From positions 710,774 to 774,773 of the forward strand of contig OY782677.1 in NCBI GenBank assembly GCA_963677975.1: a DNA stretch of 64,000 nucleotides, given 5' to 3'. A program made the position numbers and the translations under genes. Source of the DNA: Bacteroidales bacterium (lineage in GTDB: Bacteria; Bacteroidota; Bacteroidia; Bacteroidales; UBA4417). The notes beneath the pieces are model-generated. The model saw only the letters and a list, made by a program, of their open reading frames with translations. It was not told the origin of the DNA and did not search any database. This document shows, piece by piece, positions 8,137 through 22,233 of the stretch (the stretch's first letter is position 1; every line of letters starts with the position of its first letter).

Positions 8137-8883
8137 TCAGGCCTTCGCGTTTTTAAAAGCCAGTTTTGCTACTTGTTTGTACTGCGGGCTTCCGGCACCA
8201 AAAACGGATTTAATATAGGTTTTTGAGTCCATGGCAATATCAAAAAGCCCGGTTTTAGGGGCATAGAGTATGGCATCGCGCGCGATGCGGGCATTGTTCA
8301 GGGGTGTAACAGCGGCGAGTACGGCTTCGTTTTTTGTAAGCAGGGTGTTGTACGTTTCGCGAAGTGTGCCGACCTGCAGATCGGTTTCATTGGGCGCATA
8401 CGTAGTAATTCCCGCCAGCAGCTGAATCAGTTTGTCGAAATTGTCCAGACGGTTGTTGTAACTCATCTGCGAGGCAGAAATTTCCTTTGTTTCCTTTCCT
8501 GCTGCGGCAAGCGCCGATTTTTGCTCTTCGGTCTTTTTGGGGGTTGCCCTTGTACCCTGGATTTTGCGTACTATAGTTTTTGCATTATCAACAACCTGAG
8601 TGGCGGTGTCGGATGCTTTTAGCGAGTTGAGTATACGTGTAGTTAGTTTGCTGAGTGGTGCAATGGCAACCTCCCTGTCGGCAACAGCATTGCTGTAAGC
8701 GGGAAGCAGGGCATTAATGTCGCGGAGTGCCGATTTGGCCAGGTTCGAAAGTTTTTGCATTTCCACTACCTGTATCGACACTTTGGATGGGTTGTAAGCA
8801 GATCCAAAGCCTGTTGCGGCAGCGATGATTTCATCGAAATTGGCTACATTTCTGGCATTTCCGGTTTCAGAAGTAGTTTTCAT
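8137..8883 (-). CDS. Conserved Bacteroidota hypothetical protein (alpha-helical, 'SETG.A.NVANF' family)
   Basis: 248-aa ORF with the recognisable motifs SETGNARNVANF, YNPS, ISASQMSYNNRLDNF, YAPNE and YIKSVFG..SPQYKQV. Function unknown. Confidence 0.8.
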   Translation of the reverse strand: MKTTSETGNARNVANFDEIIAAATGFGSAYNPSKVSIQVVEMQKLSNLAKSALRDINALLPAYSNAVADREVAIAPLSKLTTRILNSLKASDTATQVVDNAKTIVRKIQGTRATPKKTEEQKSALAAAGKETKEISASQMSYNNRLDNFDKLIQLLAGITTYAPNETDLQVGTLRETYNTLLTKNEAVLAAVTPLNNARIARDAILYAPKTGLFDIAMDSKTYIKSVFGAGSPQYKQVAKLAFKNAKA

Positions 8884-9178: not shown

Positions 9179-10642
9179 ATGATCACCGGAGAACTAAAAT
9201 CACAAATAGATAAAGTCTGGGAAGCGTTTTGGACCGGGGGGCTTTCAAACCCCCTAACTGTTATTGAACAAATGACCTTTTTGCTTTTTATCCGCAGGCT
9301 GGATGAACTGCAAACACAACGCGAACAAAAGGCAAACCTGCTTAATAAGCCTATCGAAGATCCTATTTATACCGAAGCCGAATACGAATTGCGCTGGAGC
9401 TGGTTCAAGAATATGGACCCGGAGGTAATGCACAAGATGTTTACAAAGAATGATGGCGTATTCGATTTTCTGCGTAATGTAGGCAACCGGAGTGCTGCAT
9501 TCAGCAAGTTTATGAAGGGTGCAACCTTTATGATTCCCACACCGCGTTTGCTAGCCCAGGTGGTTGAAATGCTCTCGAATGTGGATATGCGCGACCGTGA
9601 CACCAAAGGTGATGTCTATGAGTATCTGTTAAGCAAAATTGCTACTGCCGGCCAGAACGGGCAGTTTCGCACGCCCAGGCATATAATCCGCATGATGGTT
9701 GAACTGGTACAACCTACCATCGAAGATGTGATCTGCGACCCAAGTTCAGGTACATGTGGTTTTTTAACGGTTGGCGGTGAATATATCCGTGAGCATTACG
9801 AAAACGAATTGTACAGGGAAGATGTAAAACAGCATTTCCAGAACAGGATGTTTATGGGGATGGAGTTCGACCCTACCATGATCCGCATAGGCGCCATGAA
9901 TATGATACTCCATGGTATCGAAAACCCCCAGCTATACGATGTGGACTCCCTGAGTGAAGCCAACACCGGTTTTACGGATAAAGCTACCCTGGTGCTCTCC
10001 AATCCTCCTTTTAAGGGAAGACTGGACCGTGAAGCCGTGGATGGCAAAATCCTGGCCGTGGTGGATAGCAAGAAAACCGAATTGCTTTTCCTTGCCCTGA
10101 TTTTACGTGGTTTACGGCTTGGCGGGCGTGCAGTGGTGATTGTTCCTGATGGGGTATTATTTGGAAGCAGTAAAGCCCATTTGCAGATACGCAAGGAGAT
10201 TATTGACCGCCAGAGGTTACAGGCTGTTATATCCATGCCCAGTGGTGTGTTTAAGCCCTATGCGGGTGTAAGCACAGCCATATTGCTATTTACCAAAACC
10301 AACAGCGGTGGAACCGACCAGGTATGGTTTTACGATATGAAAGCCGATGGCTATAGCCTGGATGATAAACGCAGCCCTATTGAAGCCAACGATATTCCGG
10401 ATATTATCGAACGATTTAAAAACCTGAATCAGGAAACCAACCGCAGCCGGACCGACAGCAGCTTTATGGTTCCTGTTATCGAAATACGGGATAATAAATA
10501 CGACCTTAGTATTAATCGCTATAAAGAAGTAGTGCATGAAGTAAAAACGTATCAGGATCCTTCGGTTATAATCAGTGAGATTGAAACCCTGGATAAAGAA
10601 CGGGCGGAATTGTTAAACCAATTAAAAACAATGTTGGCATGA
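9179..10642 (+). CDS. hsdM: Type I restriction-modification methyltransferase subunit M (m6A)
   Basis: MITGELKSQIDKVW start, GQFRTPRHII, motif I DPSSGTCGF, motif IV NPPF, IVPDGVLFG, FKPYAGVST. Confidence 0.97.
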   Translation: MITGELKSQIDKVWEAFWTGGLSNPLTVIEQMTFLLFIRRLDELQTQREQKANLLNKPIEDPIYTEAEYELRWSWFKNMDPEVMHKMFTKNDGVFDFLRNVGNRSAAFSKFMKGATFMIPTPRLLAQVVEMLSNVDMRDRDTKGDVYEYLLSKIATAGQNGQFRTPRHIIRMMVELVQPTIEDVICDPSSGTCGFLTVGGEYIREHYENELYREDVKQHFQNRMFMGMEFDPTMIRIGAMNMILHGIENPQLYDVDSLSEANTGFTDKATLVLSNPPFKGRLDREAVDGKILAVVDSKKTELLFLALILRGLRLGGRAVVIVPDGVLFGSSKAHLQIRKEIIDRQRLQAVISMPSGVFKPYAGVSTAILLFTKTNSGGTDQVWFYDMKADGYSLDDKRSPIEANDIPDIIERFKNLNQETNRSRTDSSFMVPVIEIRDNKYDLSINRYKEVVHEVKTYQDPSVIISEIETLDKERAELLNQLKTMLA

Positions 10643-11787
10643 GGTGGGATTTTGTTCGATTAGGTGATTTAGCAACATTCGTAAATGGATTTCCTTTCAA
10701 ACCAAGTGAATGGACAAACGAAGGCATTGAAATAATCCGTATTCAAAATCTAACCAAAAGCTCCTCTGAATCTAACTATTATGATGGTACAATCCCTGAA
10801 AAATACAGAGTAAAGAATGGTGATATTTTAATATCCTGGTCAGCAACTCTTGATGTTTTTGTTTGGGATGGTAGCGATGCCTGGCTAAACCAGCATATCT
10901 TTAAAGTTGTATTTGATAAAACAGATATTGATAAGAAGTTTTTTATTTACCTGATAAAAAATGTTCTGGAAGAAATGCGTCGATCAGTTCATGGAGCTAC
11001 AATGCAACATATAACAAAAGACAGGTTTGATAATTTACAAGTTCCACAGCCCCCACTCCCCATCCAGAAACGCATTGCCGAAATCCTGGACGCAGCCGAT
11101 GCCTTAAAACGCAAAGACCAGGAATTACTTAAAAAATACGATGAATTGGCTCAAGCAATTTTTATTGATATGTTTGGTGATCCGGTGCGTAATGATAAAG
11201 GATGGAAATTGAAGAAAATAAAAAAGATTACTTCATTAATAACCTATGGGTTAACAGTTAGGCCCAAATATTTGGAGCAAGGAATTCCTTTGATATCAGC
11301 TCGTGAATTGCGAGATGGTTTTATTAATTATCATCTTGCACCAAAGATTTCTATTGAAGATTTTAATAGTCTCTCAAATAAATGCAAACCCCAAAAAGGT
11401 GATATTCTTTTCTCGAAAACAGGTTCAATAGGACTTTCGGCAGTTGTAGTAAAAGATATTCATTTTGCGGTAACTCAAAATGCTGCAAGGATAACTTTTG
11501 ATACTTCTTTAATTGACATTCGTTTTATATTTTCCTTATTGAATACTGAAAGTTTTATTAATGCCTGTGTGAGATTAGTAAAAGGAAATGCTGTAAAAGA
11601 TCTTCAATTGGGTGATTTTTCGGAAATTGAGATAATTGTACCACCACTTGACATACAAAAACAGTTTGCATTAAAAATTGAGAAAACAAATCAACTGATT
11701 ATTATATCTAAACAAGTTGAAGATAATTCTAAATTTCTGTTTAATTCCCTTATCCAAAAAGCATTCAATTGTGAACTTATAAATTAA
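10639..11787 (+). CDS. hsdS: Type I restriction-modification specificity subunit S
   Basis: Two AT-rich TRDs separated by the conserved helix PPLPIQKRIAEILD...MFGDP, with C-terminal PPLDIQKQF...SLIQKAF. ATGA overlap with hsdM. Confidence 0.95.
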   Translation: MRWDFVRLGDLATFVNGFPFKPSEWTNEGIEIIRIQNLTKSSSESNYYDGTIPEKYRVKNGDILISWSATLDVFVWDGSDAWLNQHIFKVVFDKTDIDKKFFIYLIKNVLEEMRRSVHGATMQHITKDRFDNLQVPQPPLPIQKRIAEILDAADALKRKDQELLKKYDELAQAIFIDMFGDPVRNDKGWKLKKIKKITSLITYGLTVRPKYLEQGIPLISARELRDGFINYHLAPKISIEDFNSLSNKCKPQKGDILFSKTGSIGLSAVVVKDIHFAVTQNAARITFDTSLIDIRFIFSLLNTESFINACVRLVKGNAVKDLQLGDFSEIEIIVPPLDIQKQFALKIEKTNQLIIISKQVEDNSKFLFNSLIQKAFNCELIN

Positions 11788-11792
11788 TTATT

Positions 11793-12299
11793 ATGAACAT
11801 AGCCCAGACACAAATTGCGTATCATACATTCAACATCAATAACAATAATATAAATTTGAATGTCGTATTTATACAGCAGATTTTAAATACTATATTACAA
11901 GTTAATTTGGAACGCCCACCAATAGCACCTCAAAAAGCATTGTCAGATGCTATAGTTTTTGCCTTTAACGATCACATTCCTGGATTCTCATCAACACGAG
12001 CTGATTTATTATGTCATTTAGGTTTAAATTATCAATATGATGGAATGATAACAATCGGTCAGAATAGAATTGGTATAGAAATTCAGTTCAGGCCCGATTT
12101 CCTAAAAGACATTACCAGGTTTCAAATTGGATTTCACGCAAATAGGTTTCAGGCTATAGTTTATATAGTCAGCATTGATAGAAGAACCATTCAACCAAAC
12201 TCATCTATGCCTCAGTTTGCTTCAGTAAACAGACATATTCAATTATTAAATTGGTTAAACATACCGATAATAGTTATAGGTGTTAATTGTATAGGTTAA
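11793..12299 (+). CDS. Putative BglII/BstYI-like PD-(D/E)xK-fold nuclease inserted in the hsd operon
   Basis: YDG...IGIEIQF...KD..RF...AIVYIV...PIIVIGV matches the D...ExQ variant active site. The gene starts 5 nt after hsdS, and its TAA overlaps the hsdR ATG (TAATG). Confidence 0.55.
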   Translation: MNIAQTQIAYHTFNINNNNINLNVVFIQQILNTILQVNLERPPIAPQKALSDAIVFAFNDHIPGFSSTRADLLCHLGLNYQYDGMITIGQNRIGIEIQFRPDFLKDITRFQIGFHANRFQAIVYIVSIDRRTIQPNSSMPQFASVNRHIQLLNWLNIPIIVIGVNCIG

Positions 12300-15200
12300 T
12301 GAGTAATTTCTCCTTTATACCCTCTAAATGGGCTACGCTCGCCAAAGCTCCTCAGGAAGCCGAAAAGCATGTGTATAATGCACCTCTTTATGCTGCTATG
12401 CTTTGCCGCAAAAGCCTCGAAGAATGGGTACGATGGATATTTGAACATGATGCCGACCTGGTACTGCCTTACGATACTTCACTCAGTTCGTTAATGTACG
12501 ATCAGGGTTTTAAGAATATAGTTGCACCCAGCCAGTTTAACCAGATTAACCTGGTGCGCAAAACAGGCAATGCCGCTGTGCACACCAATGCAAATGTAAA
12601 ACCTCAGGAAGCCTTGCACAGCCTTCACCTTCTGCATGGATTTATCGGCTGGATAGTACAGGTATACAACGAAGAAAAAATTAAGGTTCCTGTTTTCGAT
12701 GAAAACCTTCTTGCCCGGGAACCCGGCAGGGATAAAAGCAAGGAGGAACTTAAAAATCTGGAACAGGCTTACTACCAGCAGCAGGAAGTACTCAAAAAAC
12801 TGCAGGAAGAACTGGCCGGCATTAAAGCCATCAAGGAACAAAATATTTCGTTTGTCCCGCCGCCCCTTGATCCCAACGAGGATTTTACCCGCAAGCTTTA
12901 TATCGATACCCTCTTGCGTGAAGCAGGCTGGGATCCGCAGGGAAACAATGTTGCGGAATTCCCGGTATTCCATATGCCACAGGATCAAGGTACCGGGGGA
13001 AAAGGCTGGGTGGATTATGTGCTTTGGGGTAACAATGGCAAGCCGCTTGCTGTGGTCGAAGCCAAACGAACCCGGCGCGATGCCCGTGTGGGCCAGCACC
13101 AGGCCATGCTTTATGCAGATTGTCTTGAGATTGAATGCGGTCAGAGACCCGTTATATTTTACTCCAACGGATACAAAACCTGGATGTGGGACGATACGGA
13201 TTATGCTCCCCGCCAGGTATATGGATTTTATACAGCCGACGAATTACAGGCGCTTATTCAGCGCAGGACCCTCAAAATTCCACTTTCAGGCAGGCCGGTG
13301 AACCAAGCCATAACCGACAGGCATTACCAGCACGAAGCTATACGTATGGTAAACGAAGCATTGGAGAAAAATCACCGGGAAGCCTTGCTTGTGATGGCTA
13401 CCGGTACGGGTAAAACAAGGGTTTCGGCTTCCATTATCGATTTGCTGAGCAAGGCTAACTGGATTAAACGGGTATTGTTTTTAGCCGACCGCAATGCACT
13501 TATCCACCAGGCAAAGGTAAACCTGAACGATTACCTGCCTCATTTGCCTGCGGTTGATCTTACAAAGGAAAAAGAGGACGAAAGCAGCCGGATTGTTTTC
13601 TCCACCTATCAAACCATTATCAATATGATTGATGGTGAAGTTGACGGGGATAACCGTTTTTATGGGGTCGGGCATTTCGATCTGATTGTTTTTGACGAGA
13701 TACATCGTTCGGTGTACAACAAGTACAAACATATTTTCAAATACTTCGATGGGATCAGGCTCGGGTTAACAGCCACGCCAAAAACCGATACACATAAGGA
13801 TACGTACGAACTCTTCAACCTCGAACCCAACAATCCAACCTACGCGTATGAACTTGAACAGGCGGTAAACGATAAATTCCTTGTTCCGCCCAAAGCTATT
13901 TCTGTGCCCATCAAGTTTCAGCGAAAAGGAATCAAATATGCCGAACTCAGTGATGACGAAAAGCAAGCCTACGAAGAGCAGTTCGCTGATCCTGTTACCG
14001 GTGAATATCCCGACGAAATTGAAGCAGATGCCTTAAATGCCTGGCTGTTTAATTCCGATACGGTGGATAAGGTAATTGCTCATCTGATGCTTTACGGTAT
14101 AAAAGTAGAAGGCGGGGATAAACTGGCAAAGACCATAATTTTTGCCCGTTCGCACCTTCATGCCAAATTCATCGAAGAAAGGTTTAATAAGCAATACCCG
14201 TCTTACAAAGGGGCCTTTTTCAGGGTAATTGACTACCAGGAAGAATACAGGTATGATTTACTGAATAAGTTTAAAATAACCGATAACATGCCCCAGGTTG
14301 CTATATCAGTTGATATGCTGGATACAGGTATTGATGTTCCTGAAGTATGTAACCTTGTCTTTTTCAAACCTGTACGAAGCAGCACCAAATTCTGGCAAAT
14401 GCTTGGCCGGGGCACCCGCCTGTGTAAAAATTTGTTTGGCAAGGATGATGATAAACGGGAGTTCGTGATTTTCGATTTTTGCGAGAATCTTGAATTCTTT
14501 AATGTAAATCCCAAAGGATTTGAAGCCAATAGTTACAAAACCTTAAGCCAGCGCTTGTTTGAACTGCGTTTGCGGCTTGCCTTTGTGTTGTTAAGCCAGG
14601 AAGAAACTGAGTTGAAGGAATACGGACAGGCACTAATAGACCAACTAATAAAACAAACACAGGCTTTAAATACTGATAGTTTTATTGTCCGCCAGCATTG
14701 TGAGGTAGTGGAGAAATACCAGGATCCGAACAGTTGGAATGCGCTCAGCGATTTGGATATACGCGAGTTGTTCACCCACATCGCGCCCCTGATGGCCGAA
14801 ACCGAACAGGATGAAATGGCTAAACGTTTCGATGCGCTGATGCTGGAGTTGCAATTGAGCGTATTAAACGGGGAGAAGAAACAAGCGGGACTGATACAAA
14901 AGGTTGTAAGCACGGCTGCCAAACTTAGCAAAAAAGCAAGCATTCCTTCCGTCGCTCTGAAGATGGATACCATTAAAACCATTCAGGATAAAACCTTCTG
15001 GAAGGCGGCTACAATTCCTGCTATTGAACGTATACGGGTCGATCTGCGTGAACTTATGAAATTCCTCGACTTTGAAACCAGGCCAATGTATTTTACCGAT
15101 TTTGAAGATGAGCTTGAGGGAAACATAAAGGAATTCCAGCTGGTAAAGAATTTTAACGACCTTGATGCGTACAAACGCAAGGTGGAGCAATTCCTGAAAG

Positions 15201-15628
15201 AGCAGGCCAACCATATTACCATTTACAAACTCCGGAATAATGTACCCATCACCAAACCCGAACTGGATGAACTGGAACGCATGCTTTTCCGGCAAGGTTC
15301 AATCGGCACAAAGGAGGAATTTGTAAAAGTTTATGGCGAAAAGCCTTTGGGGAAGTTTGTACGTGAAATAATCGGTATGGATATCAACGCGGCAAAACAG
15401 GCCTTTGGTGAAATCCTGTACAACCAGACGCTTAACTCCGTGCAGATACGATTTATAAATAAGATTATCGACTTCCTGGCTGTGAATGGCATTATTGAAC
15501 CGGATAAGCTTTTTGAGCCCCCGTTTACCGAAGTAAGTTCGGACGGGATGGGGATTTTTGATAAAACCACATCAACCCGGATTATACAGTTGATTGAGAG
15601 GGTGAACAGGAATGCGGAAGTGGCGTAG
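12299..15628 (+). CDS. hsdR: Type I restriction endonuclease subunit R (EcoEI/type IB-like)
   Basis: Nuclease motif VDYVLW...VEAKR, Walker A MATGTGKT, DEIH, GLTATP, MLDTGIDVP, QMLGRGTR and an EcoEI_R_C-like tail. The start is most likely 12299 (MSNFSF) rather than 12287. Confidence 0.96.
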   Translation: MSNFSFIPSKWATLAKAPQEAEKHVYNAPLYAAMLCRKSLEEWVRWIFEHDADLVLPYDTSLSSLMYDQGFKNIVAPSQFNQINLVRKTGNAAVHTNANVKPQEALHSLHLLHGFIGWIVQVYNEEKIKVPVFDENLLAREPGRDKSKEELKNLEQAYYQQQEVLKKLQEELAGIKAIKEQNISFVPPPLDPNEDFTRKLYIDTLLREAGWDPQGNNVAEFPVFHMPQDQGTGGKGWVDYVLWGNNGKPLAVVEAKRTRRDARVGQHQAMLYADCLEIECGQRPVIFYSNGYKTWMWDDTDYAPRQVYGFYTADELQALIQRRTLKIPLSGRPVNQAITDRHYQHEAIRMVNEALEKNHREALLVMATGTGKTRVSASIIDLLSKANWIKRVLFLADRNALIHQAKVNLNDYLPHLPAVDLTKEKEDESSRIVFSTYQTIINMIDGEVDGDNRFYGVGHFDLIVFDEIHRSVYNKYKHIFKYFDGIRLGLTATPKTDTHKDTYELFNLEPNNPTYAYELEQAVNDKFLVPPKAISVPIKFQRKGIKYAELSDDEKQAYEEQFADPVTGEYPDEIEADALNAWLFNSDTVDKVIAHLMLYGIKVEGGDKLAKTIIFARSHLHAKFIEERFNKQYPSYKGAFFRVIDYQEEYRYDLLNKFKITDNMPQVAISVDMLDTGIDVPEVCNLVFFKPVRSSTKFWQMLGRGTRLCKNLFGKDDDKREFVIFDFCENLEFFNVNPKGFEANSYKTLSQRLFELRLRLAFVLLSQEETELKEYGQALIDQLIKQTQALNTDSFIVRQHCEVVEKYQDPNSWNALSDLDIRELFTHIAPLMAETEQDEMAKRFDALMLELQLSVLNGEKKQAGLIQKVVSTAAKLSKKASIPSVALKMDTIKTIQDKTFWKAATIPAIERIRVDLRELMKFLDFETRPMYFTDFEDELEGNIKEFQLVKNFNDLDAYKRKVEQFLKEQANHITIYKLRNNVPITKPELDELERMLFRQGSIGTKEEFVKVYGEKPLGKFVREIIGMDINAAKQAFGEILYNQTLNSVQIRFINKIIDFLAVNGIIEPDKLFEPPFTEVSSDGMGIFDKTTSTRIIQLIERVNRNAEVA

Positions 15629-15679: not shown

Positions 15680-16345
15680 ATGAAAATACAAGTCCCTTAT
15701 TTTCTTATTAAGATTGGTCAGCAGAAGTATATTGAAGCTCTTCGCAACCAAGGTCATTTATATCTGAACACAGTAAACTATTTTAAAGGTATAGAAGAAG
15801 CTCAACGGGGTGATGCAAACGAAGGTGTTGGAAGAATAGAACAGGTCAATTGGTTGAAAATTCAGATTGGAGACAAAATAATCGAAATGAAAAAAGACCA
15901 ACCTTTGAATAGGCTTGTTAATGCGCAATTAAGAATAACTAATCCTGAATTACAAGGGAATATTTATTCTATGATTTCAATTTCATCAGATACAACAGCA
16001 AATGAAGCAATCAATGATGAACGCAACTCTATTCTAGGTGATACTTTCCTCATTATAACTAATGTTTCAGAATTCATTAAACGCATTAACAATCAGCTTA
16101 AGATTCTTGGTTTAAAACCCCAATATGGCTATGTATCCTATTACGATCCAAATATACACAATGGTGATTTAAACATATTCCAAAAAGAAATTCGGTTTAA
16201 ACACCAAAGCGAATTCCGGCTATTTATTGAACATCAAATTAATAGTGTATTACAATTCAAAATAGGGACAATTGAAGACATTTCGCGAATATTTCCAATT
16301 AGTGAATTTAAAAATATTAAGTTAATGAGTGGGAAGAAAATCTAA
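15680..16345 (+). CDS. Hypothetical protein, possibly DUF2971/AbiGi-like (ART-like fold)
   Basis: AT-rich 221-aa ORF with motifs GHLYLNTVNYFK, RGDANEG, IYSM, VSYY and FQK..FKHQSEFR. The Q/E-x-E-x-R ending resembles DUF2971/AbiGi. Confidence 0.55.
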   Translation: MKIQVPYFLIKIGQQKYIEALRNQGHLYLNTVNYFKGIEEAQRGDANEGVGRIEQVNWLKIQIGDKIIEMKKDQPLNRLVNAQLRITNPELQGNIYSMISISSDTTANEAINDERNSILGDTFLIITNVSEFIKRINNQLKILGLKPQYGYVSYYDPNIHNGDLNIFQKEIRFKHQSEFRLFIEHQINSVLQFKIGTIEDISRIFPISEFKNIKLMSGKKI

Positions 16346-16596
16346 AATGTTCCAAAACCCAGCTATACAAAAGATTATTTAAATAATTAATTTGTTGGAA
16401 TATACAATTCCAGATCGAATTATGATTTATTACATGAATGAAATAATTATTATTATAGATGTCAAAGTGAAATGGAATTTTTAAAGTCAAGAGGAGTAGA
16501 TGCGAAATTTTTAATGATGACAAAAAGATTTTGAATTATGCGAAAAAACCAAATGAGGTGACAGAAAATAGTACGAATCGATAAATACAGATAGTT

Positions 16597-17601
16597 ATGA
16601 TTGAATTAGCCAATTATTCACAGCTTTATCCATATTTACCAATAGAAATTCTGTTTTTTTTTAATGCAGAATCTAATAATGGGAAACTTGTCCAGAAAGA
16701 AATTTCTATGTTTTGTAATCATTACAAAATAAAATATAAAACACCGGATATTCCTCAACCAAGAATTGTTTCAAAAATTTGTGATATTCTCTGTGAACAC
16801 AACCAATTATCAATTCTAAAGCAATCTGGACCAGATAATCTCGATAGTAGCTATATTTGCTTTATTAAAGATCGTAATTTGATAGAAAATTCATTAGTTC
16901 AAAACATTTTTAACACAAAACTTTCATATATTATTTATGGTTTTAAATACATTTATGCAGATTATAGAAAATTTGTTTTACCAATAGAGTATACAACTAA
17001 TTCGGGTAATAGAACTCTTGGAACTTGTTTTATATACAACCACGGGTTAGCGACTGCAAAACATTGTATTGAAGGCGCAAAAAAAATATCAATACAAGGG
17101 ATTTTTAAAAATGATTTGCAAAATGCAAAATTTGAAATTCATGAAAATGAATTAATGGATTTGTTGTTTATAAGATTTCAAAAGGAGATACCCGATTCTA
17201 TATTATTCAGCGAAAATGCCGAATTACTTGATGAAATAATGACATTGGGGTATCCCAAAATTGCTGGATATCATAATTTTTTAACAGCTGAAAAAGCAAA
17301 TATTTCAGCTAGATTTACAGCAACTGTTGGTCAAATTGCATCAAATGCAAGGGATATTTGGATTCGCGAAAACTTATTACTAATTACTGCAAAGATAAAA
17401 GGGGGTAATAGTGGTGGACCTGTCATAAGCAGGAATGGGTCTGTTATTGGAGTTTCAGTAAATTGTGCTGAAGGAGAAGGGGACTATGATGACCTTGGTT
17501 ATGGAACAGTATTACCTGTTTCATTTTTGGATGAAATCATAAATAATAATGTGAAAAAATATCTTGATATTAGTTCTATTGAATTTATTGATTTTAAATA
17601 G
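16597..17601 (+). CDS. Cytoplasmic trypsin-like serine protease with an uncharacterised N-terminal domain
   Basis: Catalytic triad motifs TAKHC, MDLLF and GGNSGGPV, plus TLGYP. No signal peptide. Confidence 0.85.
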   Translation: MIELANYSQLYPYLPIEILFFFNAESNNGKLVQKEISMFCNHYKIKYKTPDIPQPRIVSKICDILCEHNQLSILKQSGPDNLDSSYICFIKDRNLIENSLVQNIFNTKLSYIIYGFKYIYADYRKFVLPIEYTTNSGNRTLGTCFIYNHGLATAKHCIEGAKKISIQGIFKNDLQNAKFEIHENELMDLLFIRFQKEIPDSILFSENAELLDEIMTLGYPKIAGYHNFLTAEKANISARFTATVGQIASNARDIWIRENLLLITAKIKGGNSGGPVISRNGSVIGVSVNCAEGEGDYDDLGYGTVLPVSFLDEIINNNVKKYLDISSIEFIDFK

Positions 17602-17968: not shown

Positions 17969-18697
17969 TTATGTTTTCTTTCTTAATGATTCTCCTTTTA
18001 ATTCAATTCTATGAGCTGAACCTGACAATCTGTCCATTATTGCATCAGCTAAAGTGGGTTCATCCAGATACTGATACCATGATTTTACAGGAAGTTGGGA
18101 TGTGATAATGGTTGCACGTTTTCCATAACGGTCTTCCAGCAGTTGTAACAGGGTGAGTTTAGTATTGTGATCCAATGGAGCCAGCCCAAAGTCATCCAGT
18201 ATTATGAGCGGGATTTTTTCTAATTGATTGAGCAGTTTGATATAAGATCCATCGAGTCTGGCCTGGATCAGCCTTTCAATAAATCTGTTCATTCCCAGGT
18301 AATACACTTTGTAACCTAAGGAACAGGCCTGCCGACCTAAAGCACAAGCCAGATAACTTTTGCCACAACCTGTGGCACCGGTAATCAGTATATTTTCACT
18401 TCGTTGAATGAAGCTGCAATCCGAAAGAGAGAGTAATTCTTCACGTGAGAGGTTGCGGTTAGTTGAGCACTGTATCTGCTCTATAACGGCATCATAGCGG
18501 AGTTTACTCAGTTTAAGATACATCTGAGTTCTTAGGCCAGTGCGGTTTTGACCTTCGGCTTCCACCAATCGGGCAATCAGTTCGTGGGAAGTTGGTTGTT
18601 CGTGCGTAGGAAGTGCGAGGGCTCCCCGGTATGCTTGCGCCATACCATTTAACCTGAGTTGTTCAAGTTGTTCTAAGGTTGCATTTGTGTTAATCAT
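17969..18697 (-). CDS. istB: IS21 helper ATPase IstB
   Basis: GATGCGKSYLACALG, IILDDFG, LEDRY, ITSQLP, ADAIMDRL, ELKGESLR. Confidence 0.96.
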   Translation of the reverse strand: MINTNATLEQLEQLRLNGMAQAYRGALALPTHEQPTSHELIARLVEAEGQNRTGLRTQMYLKLSKLRYDAVIEQIQCSTNRNLSREELLSLSDCSFIQRSENILITGATGCGKSYLACALGRQACSLGYKVYYLGMNRFIERLIQARLDGSYIKLLNQLEKIPLIILDDFGLAPLDHNTKLTLLQLLEDRYGKRATIITSQLPVKSWYQYLDEPTLADAIMDRLSGSAHRIELKGESLRKKT

Positions 18698-18819
18698 AAT
18701 GATTTGGTTTTAAAGAGTGGATAGTGTTGTGAAGTATGCTAACCTTCTTTTCCGCCCCCTTCCTGTGGGCATGTGGGCAGATATAGGAAGGGGAGCGGAG
18801 AAGAAGAGTAATCCGGGAG

Positions 18820-20382
18820 TTAACCGTAAGTTCCGGCTCCCCGCAGGTTATCGTGTTGCGGCAGACTGTAATCAATGGATATTTGCAGCGGTTGTTTGTC
18901 CAGGCATTTTTCAAGGATACTGTTTAGAGTACCATAGGTTACTTTCCCATTGTAGGACAAAGCCCTGGCACATGCTGCTTCAAGCCTGAGCTTTCCATAT
19001 TTGTCGGCTAAGCGTATTATTCCTATGCATGAACGATAAGTTTGTTCTTTAAAGATCTTCTGTTTTAAGACTTCACGGATGGCCGCCACTGTGTTTTCAC
19101 CGATTGTGGTAGATTTCTTCAAAAAATATTCTTCATCCCAGCCTCGCTGTTCTGTATAATGCTTATGGTTGGCAGGCATATGCTCATCAAGGGTTGAATA
19201 AGTATTACTACGGGTATCCCGCCAATGCGAAGCGATACGTTGTTGGTTAAGGTAAATCTCTACGTTTTCAGTATCATAAACCAGGCTTACCTGCTTACCG
19301 ATATATTGATGGGGAACACTGTAAAAATGTTTGTCTTCGCCCAGCATCACATGATAGTTCTTTGCTACTTTGGCTGATCGGGTTGACTTGGGAACGAAAG
19401 CTTCCTGTGGCAATGGTCGCAGCAATGGGTGCTCCAGGCTTATAAATTTATCATATCGACTGTAATCCCGACTCTGATATTTACTGTGATTGAGTTTATC
19501 TGTTTTTTCTAAAAGGGCTTTGTTTAATTCAATCAAAGAGTGAAAGTGCTCGTTACGAAGCGGAGCATATACCCGATAATAAGCTGTGTTAACACTACTT
19601 TCAACCCCGGCTTTATCGCGTGGTTTGGCTACCCGGGTAGCTGTGAGCGTAGTGTTGTAATGTCCGGACCATTGCTGGGCATATTCATCAAACGATGGCT
19701 CATAACGGTTTGCTTTTTTTACAAACTGTTTCATGTTGTCGGTACGTACCATATACGGAACTCCGCCAAAATACTCCAATGCCCTGCCTAGTGCGGCTAT
19801 CAGCCAGGGCCGTTGCTGTGATGGCAATGCTTCAATGTAGGTGTATCCTGAACAGGGCAACCGGCATACCAATACAACAGATTTTATAATTTCACCTGAT
19901 TGTTGATTAACATAGTTAATCGTATCGCCGGCAAAGTCAAACTCCATTAACTCGGCTGGTGGATGGTCAAAGTGCATAACAGCGTTCCTGCTATCCTGAT
20001 ACCGTTTCAGTAAATCACAAAACTGAGAACGGCTATACCCGCCAGGAACTTCTTCTCGGTATTCTTCCCACAATATCTGTTTTGTTGTTTTCTTGTTCTT
20101 TAACTGCTCCGTGAAGTATTTCACCCGCTGTTCAAAGTCAACATATTTGCTGTCTTTATCCGGCTCTGCTTTTACTGAAAGTACAGCTTCTGCAAGATCC
20201 TCATCATTTAACCGTAATAACTCCTTGTAGCTTCTTCCACAATGGTTTATACGAGTTACATACGCGCCCACCGTGTTCCGTGTCACATGCAATATCTCAG
20301 AAATCTGACGATTTGAAGAGCCTTGCTCTTTGAGTTGTAGTAGTCTTTTTATCAATAACATGGGTACAGGTTTATTCGCCAT
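18820..20382 (-). CDS. istA: IS21 transposase IstA
   Basis: N-terminal HTH, LWEEY...YSRSQFC, EFDFAG, TDNMK, PRDKAGVE, HFYSVP, C-terminal HDNLRG. Confidence 0.96.
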   Translation of the reverse strand: MANKPVPMLLIKRLLQLKEQGSSNRQISEILHVTRNTVGAYVTRINHCGRSYKELLRLNDEDLAEAVLSVKAEPDKDSKYVDFEQRVKYFTEQLKNKKTTKQILWEEYREEVPGGYSRSQFCDLLKRYQDSRNAVMHFDHPPAELMEFDFAGDTINYVNQQSGEIIKSVVLVCRLPCSGYTYIEALPSQQRPWLIAALGRALEYFGGVPYMVRTDNMKQFVKKANRYEPSFDEYAQQWSGHYNTTLTATRVAKPRDKAGVESSVNTAYYRVYAPLRNEHFHSLIELNKALLEKTDKLNHSKYQSRDYSRYDKFISLEHPLLRPLPQEAFVPKSTRSAKVAKNYHVMLGEDKHFYSVPHQYIGKQVSLVYDTENVEIYLNQQRIASHWRDTRSNTYSTLDEHMPANHKHYTEQRGWDEEYFLKKSTTIGENTVAAIREVLKQKIFKEQTYRSCIGIIRLADKYGKLRLEAACARALSYNGKVTYGTLNSILEKCLDKQPLQISIDYSLPQHDNLRGAGTYG

Positions 20383-21462
20383 TGTCTAAAGGGGTTTAAC
20401 CTTCAAACTTAAACCATGTTCCTGTACCTCTGGGTGGCTCACTTTGCGCCGGATTGTCAGGTGTTTTTTTGAAAAACAATCCAAAAATGATTCCTGAGTC
20501 TTTTAACGTGTCAAATTAAAGTGTCACGTTTTGCTCCGGATTTGGTGGCTCACTTTGCTCCGGATCGGTGTCACCCTTTCGTCCGGATTTGTGTCACTAT
20601 ATACTCCGGATTATTCACTTTTCAACTGAAATACAGAAAAAGAGTGATGTGCCAATTATTATTAAATTATCAAAAAGTAAATTCCTATTTTATTTTGCAT
20701 TAATCGACAACTTCGAAGCGGAGGGGCCTTTTATTTCTTTAAATGATTTAAAAAAGAATTCACTTATTTTTTCCTCAATCAAATTAAAAAAAAAGAGAAA
20801 TAGTCCTGAAAAGTTCAAATATTAAAGAAATTGCAGATTTAATTTTATATAAAGAAGGAAGCATATATGAAAAGGTTTTTAGTGAAGCTTTTAATCACAC
20901 ATTAGTTGGCAGAATATCGAAGCAAAAAGTTAAAGGAGTAAATTTCTTCAATCCAGAAATAGTTAAAATAATTGAAACAGTGTCAAAAAACGAAAAATCC
21001 GGGGTTTATTCTGCGCGGTTAGCCAAGCTTAATAAGTATACTGACCAATGGGTTGAGAAGGAAGAAGTAACTAATTATTTCCCTGACAACTGGTCTATTC
21101 ATCAATTATTTCATGAGTGTTACTTCGCTTTTAATAATAAGATACAGGTTTCAGACAGGATATACAAATCCCAGTCGATAAGTGGTATAATTGTTAAATT
21201 TGTAATTGATGAAAACGGGAAAATATTAACCTTCTTTCCAGAATTGAACGAAGAGAATAATGATTGCTCATTTAAAATAGTTTATAATTGAAATTAAATG
21301 GTCGGAATTGCAACAAAGAAAAATTTGCGCATCGAAGTGCCAGAAATTGCCTAATGTGTTGAAAGAAGATAACAGGAGAAAGACAGGAATCTGAATACCA
21401 CATTGACACTAATTGTTTAGCATCACATATTCGGTAATCGAAGTAAATAAATAGCAGATGAT

Positions 21463-22233
21463 ATGATAAGCGCTAATACTTTATTCCATTTTACTAGTTC
21501 AATTGAAAATATTCGAAGCATTTTAACAAACAACTTTTCCCCTCGCTACTGTTTAGAAAAGTTAGATTTTGTTGCTGGAGCTGAAATGGAAATTGGGATT
21601 CCAATGGTTTGTTTTTGCGACATTCCTCTATCTCAAGTAACACAGCACATTAACACTTACGGCTCATATGCAATTGGACTGAAAAAGGAATGGGCTCTTG
21701 CAAATGCGATTTCGCCGGTCATATATTTATACACTGAATCAAGAACAAACTATCTGCTTAACCAGTTATTTAAAACTTCAGTGCGCTTCGACCGAATTGA
21801 ACATTTATTAAAGAAACAAAAGACTGATAATGCCACGAAAGAAATTTTTGAACTATTATACCATTGTAAACCCTATAAAGGAAGCATGCGGCGCAAAGGT
21901 ACATTGCTGGAGAACATCACATTTTACAACGAGAGGGAATGGAGATTTGTTCCAAGTCTCGGAGACCTGGAGTTTATCAACCCTAGATTTTGTATTAGTA
22001 AGGATGAGTATGATAACAAAGTACGAAAGGCCGAATTTGATAAGAATTTATCTGGTTTTGTTATCCCATTTACGCCGTCAGATATCAAATACATCATAAT
22101 AAAAAATGAAACTGAAAGGTTGGAAGCTGTTGAATTAATTGAAGTTATTAAAGGAAGTATGTTTGATGCCCGACAATTAAGAGAACTAAGCTCAAAAATT
22201 CTTACTGTTGAGCAAATATTGGAGGATTTCTAA
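21463..22233 (+). CDS. AbiGi-family abortive-infection-associated protein
   Basis: ANTLFHFT...F.PRYCLE, PMVCFCDIPLSQ...H...YGSYAIGLKKEWA...SPVIY, FYNEREWRFVP, F.PSDIKYII. Confidence 0.85.
   Translation: MISANTLFHFTSSIENIRSILTNNFSPRYCLEKLDFVAGAEMEIGIPMVCFCDIPLSQVTQHINTYGSYAIGLKKEWALANAISPVIYLYTESRTNYLLNQLFKTSVRFDRIEHLLKKQKTDNATKEIFELLYHCKPYKGSMRRKGTLLENITFYNEREWRFVPSLGDLEFINPRFCISKDEYDNKVRKAEFDKNLSGFVIPFTPSDIKYIIIKNETERLEAVELIEVIKGSMFDARQLRELSSKILTVEQILEDF

What the first reader, a model, noticed from the sequence alone, without database searches (positions are those of the whole stretch)
11793..12299. Lys/Glu-depleted BglII-like nuclease gene in the 'prrC slot' of a type I R-M operon
Seen: a 168-aa gene is wedged between hsdS and hsdR (5-nt gap upstream, TAATG overlap downstream). 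It has a D...ExQF nuclease-like motif and no methyltransferase of its own. Although AT-rich, it encodes only 2 Lys and 2 Glu (one Glu is the putative catalytic residue) against 19 Asn and many Gln/Ile, while the neighbouring hsdS is Lys-rich. Known: prrC, a tRNA-Lys anticodon nuclease, occupies this position in EcoprrI as a back-up effector, and BglII/BstYI use the ExQ variant. Inference: this may be a back-up effector coupled to the R-M complex. Its composition may keep it translatable when tRNA-Lys/Glu pools are destroyed during infection, or shield it from Lys/Glu-directed modification.
Basis: partly seen in the sequence, partly recalled or inferred. Interest (0 to 1): 0.78.

Follow-up and report, generated by a model that had tools for sequence, protein, structure and literature searches.

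The report
Miniature solitary BamHI/BglII-type nuclease gene
A small gene wedged inside a type I restriction operon encodes a stripped-down relative of the classic DNA cutters BamHI and BglII that has no methylase of its own; it belongs to a rare, unnamed, lysine-poor family that more often sits next to exported protease genes, so it looks like a passenger nuclease and not a built-in part of the restriction enzyme.

Summary
A 168-aa ORF (11793..12299) lies 5 nt after hsdS and overlaps hsdR by TAATG. It has 2 Lys and 2 Glu, the 16th lowest K+E of 3818 genome ORFs. The BglII call is right: the AlphaFold model (pLDDT 95) matches BglII, BstYI, OkrAI and BamHI at Z 14-17 (next Z 6.4). D83, E96 and Q98 are invariant, and a profile comparison aligns them with the active-site motif of canonical family members.

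The family is rare (0 of 400 other phylum genomes). Context is readable in 13 of 15 loci: 5 follow hsdS directly and 8 sit directly before TPR or TPR-CHAT genes. The hsdS-linked copies form one clade. Low Glu is not conserved (family mean 6.8%). Low Lys is (3.1%, against 8.3% in canonical relatives). Canonical relatives have an adjacent methylase in 13 of 14 loci; this family has none apart from HsdM.

Best reading: a solitary, miniaturised BamHI/BglII-type endonuclease carried as cargo in the known hsdS-hsdR slot. PrrC-like coupling is unshown. The scan has noted such slot cargo before on other DNA, but not this family.

The parts
9179..10642 (+). hsdM (487 aa)
   Evidence: Pfam N6_Mtase 1.9e-61 and HsdM_N 2.8e-16. 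82% identical to the HsdM of locus L003. GC 45.6%.
10639..11787 (+). hsdS (382 aa), low-GC, Lys-rich
   Evidence: Pfam Methylase_S 2.5e-35, two stretches. GC 33.0%, K 9.4%. Only about 31% identical to the HsdS of L003 and L014.
11793..12299 (+). X: 168-aa solitary miniature BamHI/BglII-fold endonuclease gene (the finding)
   Evidence: ORF. 25 homologues at 40-68% identity. AF2 pLDDT 95.2. VIA Z 16.6 BglII, 16.4 BstYI, 15.5 OkrAI, 14.3 BamHI, next 6.4. Foldseek ranks 1-16 are all these four enzymes. hhalign to canonical PF09195 proteins 93.6%. GC 32.0%.
12039..12110 (+). Catalytic core motif D83-G84...E96-I-Q98-F-R-P-D-F-L-K105-D106
   Evidence: D83, E96, R100, P101 and F110 are invariant in 51 sequences; Q98 is invariant in the core family and E in the wider family. 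The motif lies on the beta-hairpin E84-88/E91-97 of the model. hhalign aligns RIGIEIQF with RIALEIEW of canonical members. The D-x12-E-x-(Q/E) spacing equals that of OkrAI D86/E99/E101 (PMC3025578 passages).
12299..15628 (+). hsdR (1109 aa from the ATG at 12299)
   Evidence: Pfam DUF4145, HSDR_N, ResIII, Helicase_C, EcoEI_R_C. 75% identical to the HsdR of L003 and L004. GC 45.0%.
15680..17601 (+). Low-GC pair downstream of hsdR: orf221 (15680..16345, no family) and a trypsin-like protease (16597..17601). Part of the same island; no link to X shown.
   Evidence: Pfam Trypsin_2 5e-12. PADLOC RT-Protease_XI 5.5e-16 and PDC-M35A 9e-12. orf221 has no hit in Pfam, NCBIfam or PADLOC. GC 31% and 29%.
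17969..20382 (-). IS21-type istB/istA bordering the island
   Evidence: Pfam IstB_IS21 9e-63; rve + Mu-transpos_C_2.

Best explanation
X is a solitary, miniaturised member of the BamHI/BglII/BstYI/OkrAI lineage of PD-(D/E)xK type II restriction endonucleases. Its active site (D83, E96, Q98) is intact.

It is carried as a passenger gene in the cargo slot between hsdS and hsdR of a Bacteroidota type I R-M operon. It was probably acquired together with the low-GC hsdS. It is most likely transcribed with the operon, given gaps of 5 nt and -1 nt.

It most likely acts on its own as a Mg2+-dependent, probably homodimeric, DNA endonuclease that adds a second cutting activity to the island. It would not be a subunit or a PrrC-like latent partner of the type I enzyme.

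It has no cognate methylase. Self-protection must therefore come from something else: dependence on a modification, a very rare target, or methylation by another enzyme. This is not known.

The extreme K+E poverty of this copy has two layers: a Lys poverty shared by the whole family and a Glu loss specific to its lineage.

Shown: the gene, the fold, conservation of the motif, purifying selection, the gene contexts and the composition. Inferred: nuclease activity, dimer formation, independence from HsdMSR and a defence role.
For: - Fold: AF2 pLDDT 95.2, pTM 0.91. VIA-align gives Z 16.6 (rmsd 2.6, 150 aligned) to BglII, 16.4 to BstYI, 15.5 to OkrAI and 14.3 to BamHI; the next best is 6.4. All Foldseek ranks 1-16 are these four enzymes, E 6e-6 to 1.4e-3.
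- Homology: 17 of 25 family members hit Pfam Endonuc-BglII, best E 3.8e-8. hhalign against 11 canonical PF09195 proteins gives 93.6%, E 2e-7, and puts E96/Q98 on their E-x-E/Q. In the Atlas, 21 of 30 feature hits of homologue P0008 are BamHI/BglII clusters.
- Active site: D83 and E96 are invariant in 51 sequences. Position 98 is Q in the core family and E in the wider family, the BglII and BamHI variants.
- Working gene: dN/dS is 0.19-0.36 in 8 of 9 pairs.
- Solitary: HMMER over 1.84 billion representatives of all lengths found 53 hits. None is a convincing fusion.
- No methylase: none was found among the ORFs scanned in the 8 TPR/CHAT-linked loci. By contrast, 13 of 14 canonical PF09195 loci have an adjacent DNA methylase.
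- The slot is a general cargo site. Upstream of homologous hsdR in 16 other genomes lie AbiEii/AbiEi (2), Fic, KwaB-like, DUF433 and unknown genes. HsdS directly abuts hsdR in 1. This agrees with passages of PMC11411939 and of preprint 10.1101/2024.01.29.577857.
- Not tied to type I: 8 of 13 readable loci are TPR/TPR-CHAT-linked.
- Horizontal origin: X is a discrete AT-rich block. In the window, hsdS+X are at 32-33% GC between hsdM and hsdR at 45%. In L013, X is at 32% between genes at 51% and 44%.
Against:
- The window protein itself gets no Pfam hit even at E<=10, and PF09195 does not ring in this genome. Of 7 relatives scanned singly, 6 hit PF09195, all at 16.7-25.3 bits, below the 26-bit cut-off.
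- Within its clade, X always lies directly after hsdS and ahead of any other cargo: 4 of 4 distinct loci, across X identities of 31-46%. Pure passenger status does not predict this. It leaves room for a functional tie to HsdS or for site-specific insertion.
- The TPR-CHAT neighbourhoods consist of exported proteases (papain-like, caspase-like), a CAP-domain protein and an amidase, and are not recognisable defence islands. A defence role is therefore weaker for most of the family.
- A sequence-specific cutter without a methylase should be toxic, and how that is avoided is unexplained.
- The family-wide Lys poverty against an AT-rich background is not explained by this reading.
Confidence: 0.55

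Rival explanations
1. One reading: X is a latent back-up effector held in check by the type I complex, as PrrC is by EcoprrI. It would be unleashed when phage anti-restriction disables the complex. Its Lys-poor make-up would keep it translatable or unmodifiable during infection.
For: - The position matches that of prrC, with tight coupling to hsdS and hsdR.
- All hsdS-linked copies form one clade (support 95/85) and always sit directly after hsdS, although HsdS (about 31% identity) and X (31-46%) have diverged widely.
- Lys poverty is conserved in the core family, at 3.1% against 8.3% in canonical relatives and 8-17% in AT-rich ExE relatives.
Against: - 8 of 13 readable loci have no hsd genes at all.
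- In 3 of the 4 distinct hsd loci, other cargo separates X from hsdR.
- Glu depletion is not conserved.
- No PrrC/RloC-type AAA_13 gene was found in the genome.
- The fold is a DNA restriction nuclease, not an anticodon nuclease.
- The same slot holds many unrelated genes.
Confidence: 0.12
2. X is a selfish, homing-like or recombination-initiating endonuclease gene. It would insert at, or cut near, conserved junctions of modular and fast-diversifying genes: the 3' end of hsdS in one clade and the 5' side of TPR-CHAT genes in the others.
For: - It is a discrete AT-rich block (GC3 0.20-0.26) whatever the GC of its neighbours (GC3 0.30-0.57), with sharp boundaries.
- Its position relative to the host gene is clade-specific and exact, with gaps of 0-14 nt to hsdS and 1-14 nt to TPR-CHAT in the loci measured.
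- Its distribution is very patchy: 0 of 400 other phylum genomes, and no close copy of the operon in 40 relatives.
- It has no methylase.
Against: - There is one copy per genome in 5 of 5 genomes, although other CHAT genes are present.
- No empty-site allele, flanking repeat or duplicated junction was found.
- No silent hsdS cassettes exist in this genome.
- dN/dS of 0.2-0.36 shows steady purifying selection, not the decay cycle typical of homing genes.
- To my recollection, no BamHI-fold homing endonuclease is known.
Confidence: 0.15
3. X is a true type II-like restriction enzyme whose self-protection is supplied in trans. The source would be the M2S1 methylase of its own operon in the hsdS-linked clade, or an unlinked methylase elsewhere. 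hsdS and X would then travel and diverge together.
For: - hsdS and X share the same low GC and lie between conserved hsdM (82% identity to L003) and hsdR (75%). Both hsdS and X are themselves highly diverged, at about 31% and 31-39%.
- The active site is intact.
Against: - The CHAT-linked majority has no methylase among the ORFs scanned.
- By established knowledge, type I targets are bipartite and asymmetric, whereas BamHI-type dimers read palindromes.
- Nothing tested here links X's specificity to HsdS.
Confidence: 0.1
4. X no longer cuts. It would be a DNA-binding or regulatory protein built on a nuclease fold.
For: It has no methylase yet is apparently tolerated. It is small and lacks the last 40 or so residues of BglII: the model's residues 4-168 align to BglII residues 1-180 of 223.
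Against: D83, E96 and Q/E98 are invariant across 51 sequences down to about 20% identity, along with R100, P101 and K105/D106.
Confidence: 0.05

Closest known systems
BglII, BstYI, OkrAI and BamHI (type IIP restriction endonucleases; PDB 1d2i, 1sdo, 3odh, 1bam)
   Same: Same fold over nearly the whole protein: Z 14.3-16.6, 149-158 residues aligned. Same catalytic layout, D...E-x-Q as in BglII/BstYI (residue numbers recalled). The D-x12-E spacing equals that of OkrAI D86/E99 (PMC3025578 passages). The wider family carries the rare BamHI-type E-x-E.
   Different: - Shorter than any of them: 168 aa against OkrAI's 194, which that paper calls a minimal BamHI.
- Only 10-15% identical.
- No adjacent methylase, whereas 13 of 14 canonical PF09195 loci in the same phylum have one.
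- Lys-poor: 3.1% against 8.3%.
- The window copy is below Pfam detection.
- Recognition site and activity are unknown.
PrrC in the EcoprrI locus (anticodon nuclease between hsdS and hsdR)
   Same: Same slot in a type I operon. This rests on recalled gene order and on the Payne preprint legend, which calls PrrC almost exclusively type I-embedded.
   Different: The fold and target are unrelated (an ABC-type ATPase and tRNA-Lys nuclease, against a DNA restriction fold). Most of X's family lies outside hsd operons. No evidence of latency or of binding to the complex.
TgvAB of Vibrio cholerae VPI-2, and RloF of Campylobacter: nucleases embedded in type I operons (PMC11411939)
   Same: A second, independent DNA-targeting nuclease nested in a type I operon. 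One relative of X (L006) is followed by a TgvAB-like pair, GmrSD_N/DUF7834 plus GmrSD_N/GmrSD_C.
   Different: TgvAB are GmrSD-family type IV enzymes of 490-640 aa with shown anti-phage activity (passages). X is a 168-aa BamHI-fold protein with nothing shown.
'Guilt-by-embedding' candidates (Payne et al. preprint 10.1101/2024.01.29.577857)
   Same: X fits the definition: an unknown gene nested in a type I RM system. The preprint counts 3,231 embedded families in BREX, DISARM and RM systems (passage).
   Different: No PADLOC v2 model matches X or its 24 relatives at a meaningful E-value. The main text does not mention BglII or BamHI. Its supplements could not be read, so X may already be listed there.

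Membership tests
BamHI/BglII/BstYI/OkrAI-type restriction endonuclease fold (Pfam PF09195 Endonuc-BglII / PF02923 BamHI) | Three-dimensional fold of the family over the whole domain | tested here: met
   VIA Z 16.6, 16.4, 15.5 and 14.3 to the four solved members, next hit 6.4. Foldseek prob 1.00, TMq 0.57-0.70. The model has pLDDT 95.2.
BamHI/BglII/BstYI/OkrAI-type restriction endonuclease fold (Pfam PF09195 Endonuc-BglII / PF02923 BamHI) | Catalytic D ... E-x-(Q/E) on the beta-hairpin | tested here: met
   D83 and E96 are invariant in 51 sequences. Position 98 is Q (core) or E (wider family). hhalign places E96/Q98 on the E-x-E/Q of canonical members.
BamHI/BglII/BstYI/OkrAI-type restriction endonuclease fold (Pfam PF09195 Endonuc-BglII / PF02923 BamHI) | Score over Pfam's curated cut-off for PF09195 (26 bits) | tested here: not met
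   The window protein has no hit at E<=10, and the genome has no match. 17 of 25 relatives hit. Six of the 7 scanned singly hit, at 16.7-25.3 bits.
Type II restriction-modification system | Cognate DNA methyltransferase encoded next to the nuclease | tested here: not met
   Only HsdM is present in the hsd loci, and no methylase was found among the ORFs scanned in the 8 TPR/CHAT-linked loci. Canonical PF09195 loci have one in 13 of 14.
Type II restriction-modification system | Sequence-specific Mg2+-dependent cleavage as a homodimer | not testable with these tools
PrrC-like R-M-coupled back-up effector | Gene embedded between hsdS and hsdR | tested here: met
   True for the window. Also true of L003 and L004, though there other cargo lies between X and hsdR.
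PrrC-like R-M-coupled back-up effector | Family found (almost) only inside type I loci | tested here: not met
   5 of 13 readable loci are hsd-linked and 8 of 13 are TPR/TPR-CHAT-linked.
PrrC-like R-M-coupled back-up effector | Physical masking by the R-M complex and release by a phage trigger | not testable with these tools
This needs pull-downs and phage assays.
Free-standing homing endonuclease gene | Presence/absence polymorphism at one site, with the cleavage target in the empty allele | tested here: inconclusive
   No empty allele was found in 40 relatives or in 4 public runs. There are no flanking repeats. There is one copy per genome in 5 of 5.
Embedded defence candidate ('guilt by embedding') | Unknown gene nested within a multi-gene defence system, recurrently | tested here: met
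   4 distinct type I operons carry it directly after hsdS. Anti-phage activity is untested.

The most novel reading that the evidence does not exclude
The core family is a previously unrecognised class of methylase-less mini-restriction enzymes, and its conserved Lys poverty is itself adaptive. Lys is 3.1% in genes of about 30% GC, where relatives and neighbours have 7-17%. The composition could keep the enzyme makeable or unmodifiable when Lys-directed attack (tRNA-Lys cleavage, Lys modification or Lys-specific proteolysis) shuts down other proteins. The enzyme would be functionally tied to the gene it always touches: HsdS in one clade, an exported TPR-CHAT protease in the others. It could serve as a latent last-line nuclease, or as a break-maker that drives diversification of these modular genes.
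Probability: 0.1. Interest if true: 0.8.

Novelty: new variant of a known kind. Interest (0 to 1): 0.45.

Why it matters
If X cuts DNA, it would be the smallest BamHI/BglII-type enzyme found so far and the first of that lineage seen to persist without a partner methylase. How such an enzyme spares its host (modification dependence, a rare target or latency) is a question a simple biochemical test can answer.

The finding also adds one more unnamed family to the genes nested in type I operons. It gives a warning for 'guilt by embedding': the same family mostly lives beside exported TPR-CHAT and caspase-like protease genes, so embedding in a restriction operon does not by itself show coupling to it.

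The Lys-poor composition, kept across the family against AT bias, remains unexplained.

Tried and rejected
- **Sequence search of the PDB.** Profiles A1 and A3 found nothing relevant (best E 1.5 and 1, unrelated proteins).
- **Family libraries.** NCBIfam and PADLOC gave nothing for X. PADLOC on all 25 members gave only three single hits at E of about 0.03-0.04.
- **Phage and plasmid origin.** No relative in viral contigs (24 pattern matches, none confirmed). No tblastn match of P0001 in plasmids or phages, nor of P0041 in plasmids. BFVD fold search gave 0 matches at E<=0.001 and TMq of 0.49 or less.
- **Wider taxon sampling.** Profile A1 gave 0 of 400 other phylum genomes. Profile A2 gave one marginal hit, E 0.0087, with an internal stop. 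The representatives' sources carry no useful names.
- **Empty-site or variant alleles.** The 6.45-kb operon has only short 64-93% matches, in 8 of 40 relatives. Contigs of 4 public runs match the window with no differences across X, and in three of them a contig covers all or part of X. A few low-depth 'joints' (depth 2-29, sides 23-43 letters, at 85% likeness) probably come from other organisms' hsd genes and were not used.
- **Expression.** No RNA holder is listed among the 9 runs.
- **Flanking repeats.** Only short AT-rich matches.
- **Promoter and terminator scans.** At shuffle level: 32 against 31.3, and 7 against 7.6. The scans are not suited to Bacteroidota.
- **Silent hsdS cassettes.** None by tblastn at E<=1e-4.
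- **PrrC/RloC-type gene (PF13166).** Not found in the genome.
- **ESM Atlas.** It does not hold the window protein, so homologue P0008 was used instead.
- **Literature.** Five searches gave no paper on a solitary or hsd-embedded BamHI/BglII-like protein, judging from listings and abstracts only. Six papers hold PF09195, Endonuc-BglII, BglII-like or BamHI-like as words. bioRxiv supplements, which may list embedded families, are closed.
Full report
**1. The observation**

The ORF 11793..12299 (+) is real: 168 aa with an ATG start. hsdS stops at 11787, leaving 5 nt. The TAA stop of the ORF overlaps the ATG of hsdR at 12299, giving TAATG.

The flanking genes are a complete type I set by Pfam:
- HsdM: N6_Mtase and HsdM_N.
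- HsdS: Methylase_S, two stretches.
- HsdR: DUF4145, HSDR_N, ResIII, Helicase_C and EcoEI_R_C.

The protein has 2 Lys, 2 Glu, 19 Asn, 14 Gln and 27 Ile, while HsdS has 9.4% Lys. I built a crude whole-genome set of 3818 non-overlapping ORFs of 120 aa or more; this is not a gene caller. Only 16 of them have so little K+E. The other 15 are 9 giant proteins, 3 small ORFs of 66-70% GC that look spurious, and 3 other small ORFs. The ORF is the lowest of 169 ORFs below 35% GC, whose mean K+E is 15.1%.

**2. What the protein is**

Direct scans of the window protein against Pfam, NCBIfam and PADLOC gave nothing. A word-indexed search of 5.8 billion proteins found 25 homologues of 160-175 aa at 40-68% identity, plus one fragment that I left out of the alignment.

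The alignment shows an invariant block: D83-G84 ... E96-I-Q98-F-R-P-D-F-L-K105-D106. Seventeen of the 25 members hit Pfam Endonuc-BglII (PF09195), best E 3.8e-8. Of seven scanned singly, six hit, at 16.7-25.3 bits. That is below the 26-bit cut-off, and the hits cover the C-terminal half that holds E-x-Q.

An exhaustive HMMER pass over 1.84 billion representatives found only 53 proteins at E<=1e-3, 33 of them at E<=1e-10. They include a wider set of 175-200-aa proteins whose motif is E-I-E-F-R-P-N, that is E-x-E. Across 51 aligned sequences D83, E96, R100, P101 and F110 are invariant.

With that alignment AlphaFold2 gave pLDDT 95.2 and pTM 0.91.
- VIA-align against 48,161 PDB representatives: BglII Z 16.6 (rmsd 2.6, 150 residues), BstYI 16.4, OkrAI 15.5, BamHI 14.3, then a drop to 6.4.
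- Foldseek: ranks 1-16 are those four enzymes only.

I took 11 canonical PF09195 proteins from genomes of the same phylum. A profile-profile comparison with them gave 93.6% probability, E 2e-7. It aligns RIGIEIQF of X with RIALEIEW of the canonical proteins.

Passages of the OkrAI paper (PMC3025578) give the active sites as OkrAI E71/D86/E99/E101 and BamHI E77/D94/E111/E113. They say that a Glu at the last position is almost unique to BamHI-type enzymes. X has the OkrAI spacing, D-x12-E. That BglII and BstYI use Gln at that position is my recollection of the structural papers, not a call.

The wider family even spans both the BglII (Q) and BamHI (E) variants. At 168 aa X is smaller than OkrAI (194 aa), which that paper calls a minimal BamHI. 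The model aligns to BglII residues 1-180 of 223.

**3. A working gene**

Nei-Gojobori dN/dS is 0.19-0.36 in eight of nine pairs. The ninth is a near-identical pair with too few changes, at 0.93.

**4. Where the family lives**

- It is rare. Profile A1 found it in 0 of 400 other genomes sampled from the phylum.
- Pattern scans confirmed 4 loci in 185,579 species genomes and 10 in the metagenome collection.
- It was not found in viral contigs, phages or plasmids.
- There is one copy per genome in 5 of 5 genomes.

Fifteen loci are known, counting the window. In two of them the contig is cut: L009, whose X protein is identical to that of L010, and L015. The other 13 fall into two classes.

(a) Directly after hsdS (5 loci, 4 distinct):
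- the window;
- L003;
- L004, whose X protein is identical to that of L014;
- L014;
- L006.

For L004 and L006 the short upstream stubs translate to HsdS C-termini. What follows X differs in each:
- nothing, in the window;
- a 530-aa unknown plus an 863-aa PLD protein, in L003;
- OGG-like, an unknown 172-aa protein, UDG-like and Bro-N, in L004;
- a TgvAB-like pair of GmrSD proteins, in L006.

(b) Directly before a TPR or TPR-CHAT gene, with a gap of 1-14 nt in the loci measured (8 loci: L001, L002, L007, L008, L010-L013).
- The CHAT domain was confirmed in 5 of them.
- TPR only was seen in the 2 loci where the contig cuts the gene.
- L008 is assigned only because its N-terminus is identical to that of L010.

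These loci lie among WD40-caspase, caspase, papain-like, CAP and amidase genes. The large proteins have signal-peptide-like N-termini, judged by eye. No DNA methylase was found among the ORFs scanned there.

A maximum-likelihood tree puts all the hsdS-linked copies in one clade of 8 rows, with support 95/85. The clade also holds P0002 and P0003, whose context I could not see, and it is nested among the CHAT-linked clades.

By contrast, canonical PF09195 genes occur in 26 of 400 genomes. They have an adjacent DNA methylase (MT-A70, N6_N4, D12 or C5) in 13 of the 14 loci scanned. One further locus holds a broken gene and was not scanned.

**5. The slot**

Homologues of this HsdR's N-terminal 300 residues occur in 16 of 400 other genomes. 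Within the 1.5-kb flanks, the gene directly upstream of hsdR is:
- AbiEii with AbiEi, in 2 genomes;
- Fic (scanned in 1; two more have the same-looking 361-aa ORF);
- KwaB-like;
- DUF433;
- a SocA/Fic pair on the other strand;
- unknown genes;
- HsdS itself, in only 1 genome.

This matches what is in print. TgvAB and RloF are nested in type I operons (PMC11411939, passages). The 'guilt-by-embedding' preprint counts 3,231 embedded families in BREX, DISARM and RM systems (10.1101/2024.01.29.577857, passages). Earlier notes of this scan describe other cargo in the same slot on other DNA. None holds a look-alike of X.

**6. Composition and origin**

hsdS and X form one low-GC block (33% and 32%) between hsdM and hsdR at 45%, with sharp edges. 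HsdM and HsdR are 82% and 75% identical to those of L003. HsdS is about 31% identical and X 39%. The variable cassette of this operon family is therefore hsdS plus X plus any cargo. Elsewhere too X is a discrete AT-rich gene: in L013 it is at 32% GC between genes at 51% and 44%.

Glu poverty is not a family trait. Homologues carry 5-19 Glu, a mean of 6.8%. Most of the lost acidic positions are already A, Q or G in the two closest relatives.

Lys poverty is a family trait. The mean is 3.1% (range 0.6-5.3%), which only 3.9% of this genome's ORFs reach. Canonical PF09195 proteins of the phylum have 8.3%, and the AT-rich members of the E-x-E relatives have 8-17%. I have no tested explanation for this. 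The genome has no PrrC/RloC-type AAA_13 gene.

**7. Reading**

The best-supported view is a solitary, miniaturised BamHI/BglII-type endonuclease with an intact active site. It rides as cargo in a known hot slot of a type I operon, within a small defence island. The island also holds a trypsin-like protease candidate, an IS21 element and an AbiGi-like gene. X most likely cuts DNA on its own.

Two points argue for something more:
- its constant place directly after hsdS across a deep clade;
- its equally constant place before TPR-CHAT genes in the other clades.

A plain passenger does not predict either.

Several things argue against those readings:
- 8 of 13 loci have no hsd genes;
- other cargo separates X from hsdR in 3 of the 4 distinct hsd loci;
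- there is a single copy per genome;
- no empty sites or flanking repeats were found;
- no silent hsdS cassettes exist;
- purifying selection is steady.

How a methylase-less cutter is tolerated is open. No RNA runs were listed.

**8. Verdict**

The family is unnamed, falls below Pfam's threshold, and is absent from PADLOC v2. I did not find it in five literature searches (listings and abstracts only). Supplements of the embedding preprint were not readable and may list it.

It is a new variant of a known kind: a BamHI/BglII-fold nuclease without a methylase, embedded as cargo. Interest is moderate.

Noticed in passing
window 15680-17601: Directly after hsdR lies a very low-GC pair (31% and 29%). 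One gene is a 221-aa protein with no hit in Pfam, NCBIfam or PADLOC. The other is a 334-aa trypsin-like protease that hits PADLOC RT-Protease_XI (5.5e-16) and candidate PDC-M35A (9e-12). This may be a second embedded or adjacent defence candidate.
   Followed up: partly
window 17969-22233: An IS21-type istB/istA pair (17969-20382, minus strand) is followed by an AbiGi-like gene (21463-22233, Pfam 3e-36). With the type I operon they outline a small defence island of about 8-22 kb. No partner AbiGii gene was looked for.
   Followed up: partly
L001, L002, L007, L008, L010-L013 (X at e.g. L013:8001-8507, TPR-CHAT at L013:8522-12301): In freshwater Bacteroidota (Crocinitomicaceae MAGs and lake-type metagenome contigs) X is always the gene directly before a 1100-1260-aa TPR-CHAT protein with a signal-peptide-like N-terminus. 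These lie inside arrays of WD40-caspase, caspase and papain-like genes. What a cytoplasmic-looking nuclease does beside exported proteases is unexplained.
   Followed up: partly
core X family (alignment A1), e.g. window 11793-12299: Lys is kept low across the whole core family (mean 3.1%, as few as 1 Lys in 169 aa) although the genes are about 29-32% GC. Canonical BglII-family proteins of the phylum have 8.3%, and AT-rich E-x-E relatives 8-17%. One of the few Lys, K105, is invariant.
   Followed up: partly
L003:569-12666: A Chitinophagaceae MAG carries, upstream of the same type I operon, a WYL-WCX regulator, an 839-aa N6_Mtase fused to a GHKL ATPase, and a 388-aa unknown. Between X and hsdR it has a 530-aa unknown plus an 863-aa PLD-domain protein. 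This may be a further multi-gene defence unit.
   Followed up: no
L004:902-3713: In a Bacteroidales MAG the slot after X holds an OGG-like glycosylase, a 172-aa unknown, a UDG-superfamily protein and a Bro-N protein, ahead of hsdR. DNA-glycosylase cargo inside a restriction operon is reminiscent of base-excision restriction, but was not examined.
   Followed up: no
L006:699-4080: After X comes a pair of GmrSD-type proteins (490 aa GmrSD_N+DUF7834; 639 aa GmrSD_N+GmrSD_C). Its architecture resembles the two-protein TgvAB system described in Vibrio cholerae (PMC11411939).
   Followed up: partly
L054 (G359:C1:1211832-1215329): Two canonical PF09195 (BglII-family) genes of 197 and 213 aa lie back to back next to one D12-class adenine methylase.
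   Followed up: no
window 8137-8883 (minus strand): A 248-aa ORF just upstream of hsdM has no convincing family. Its only hits are weak: Ligase_CoA at E 0.019 and PADLOC LmuB at E 0.006.
   Followed up: no
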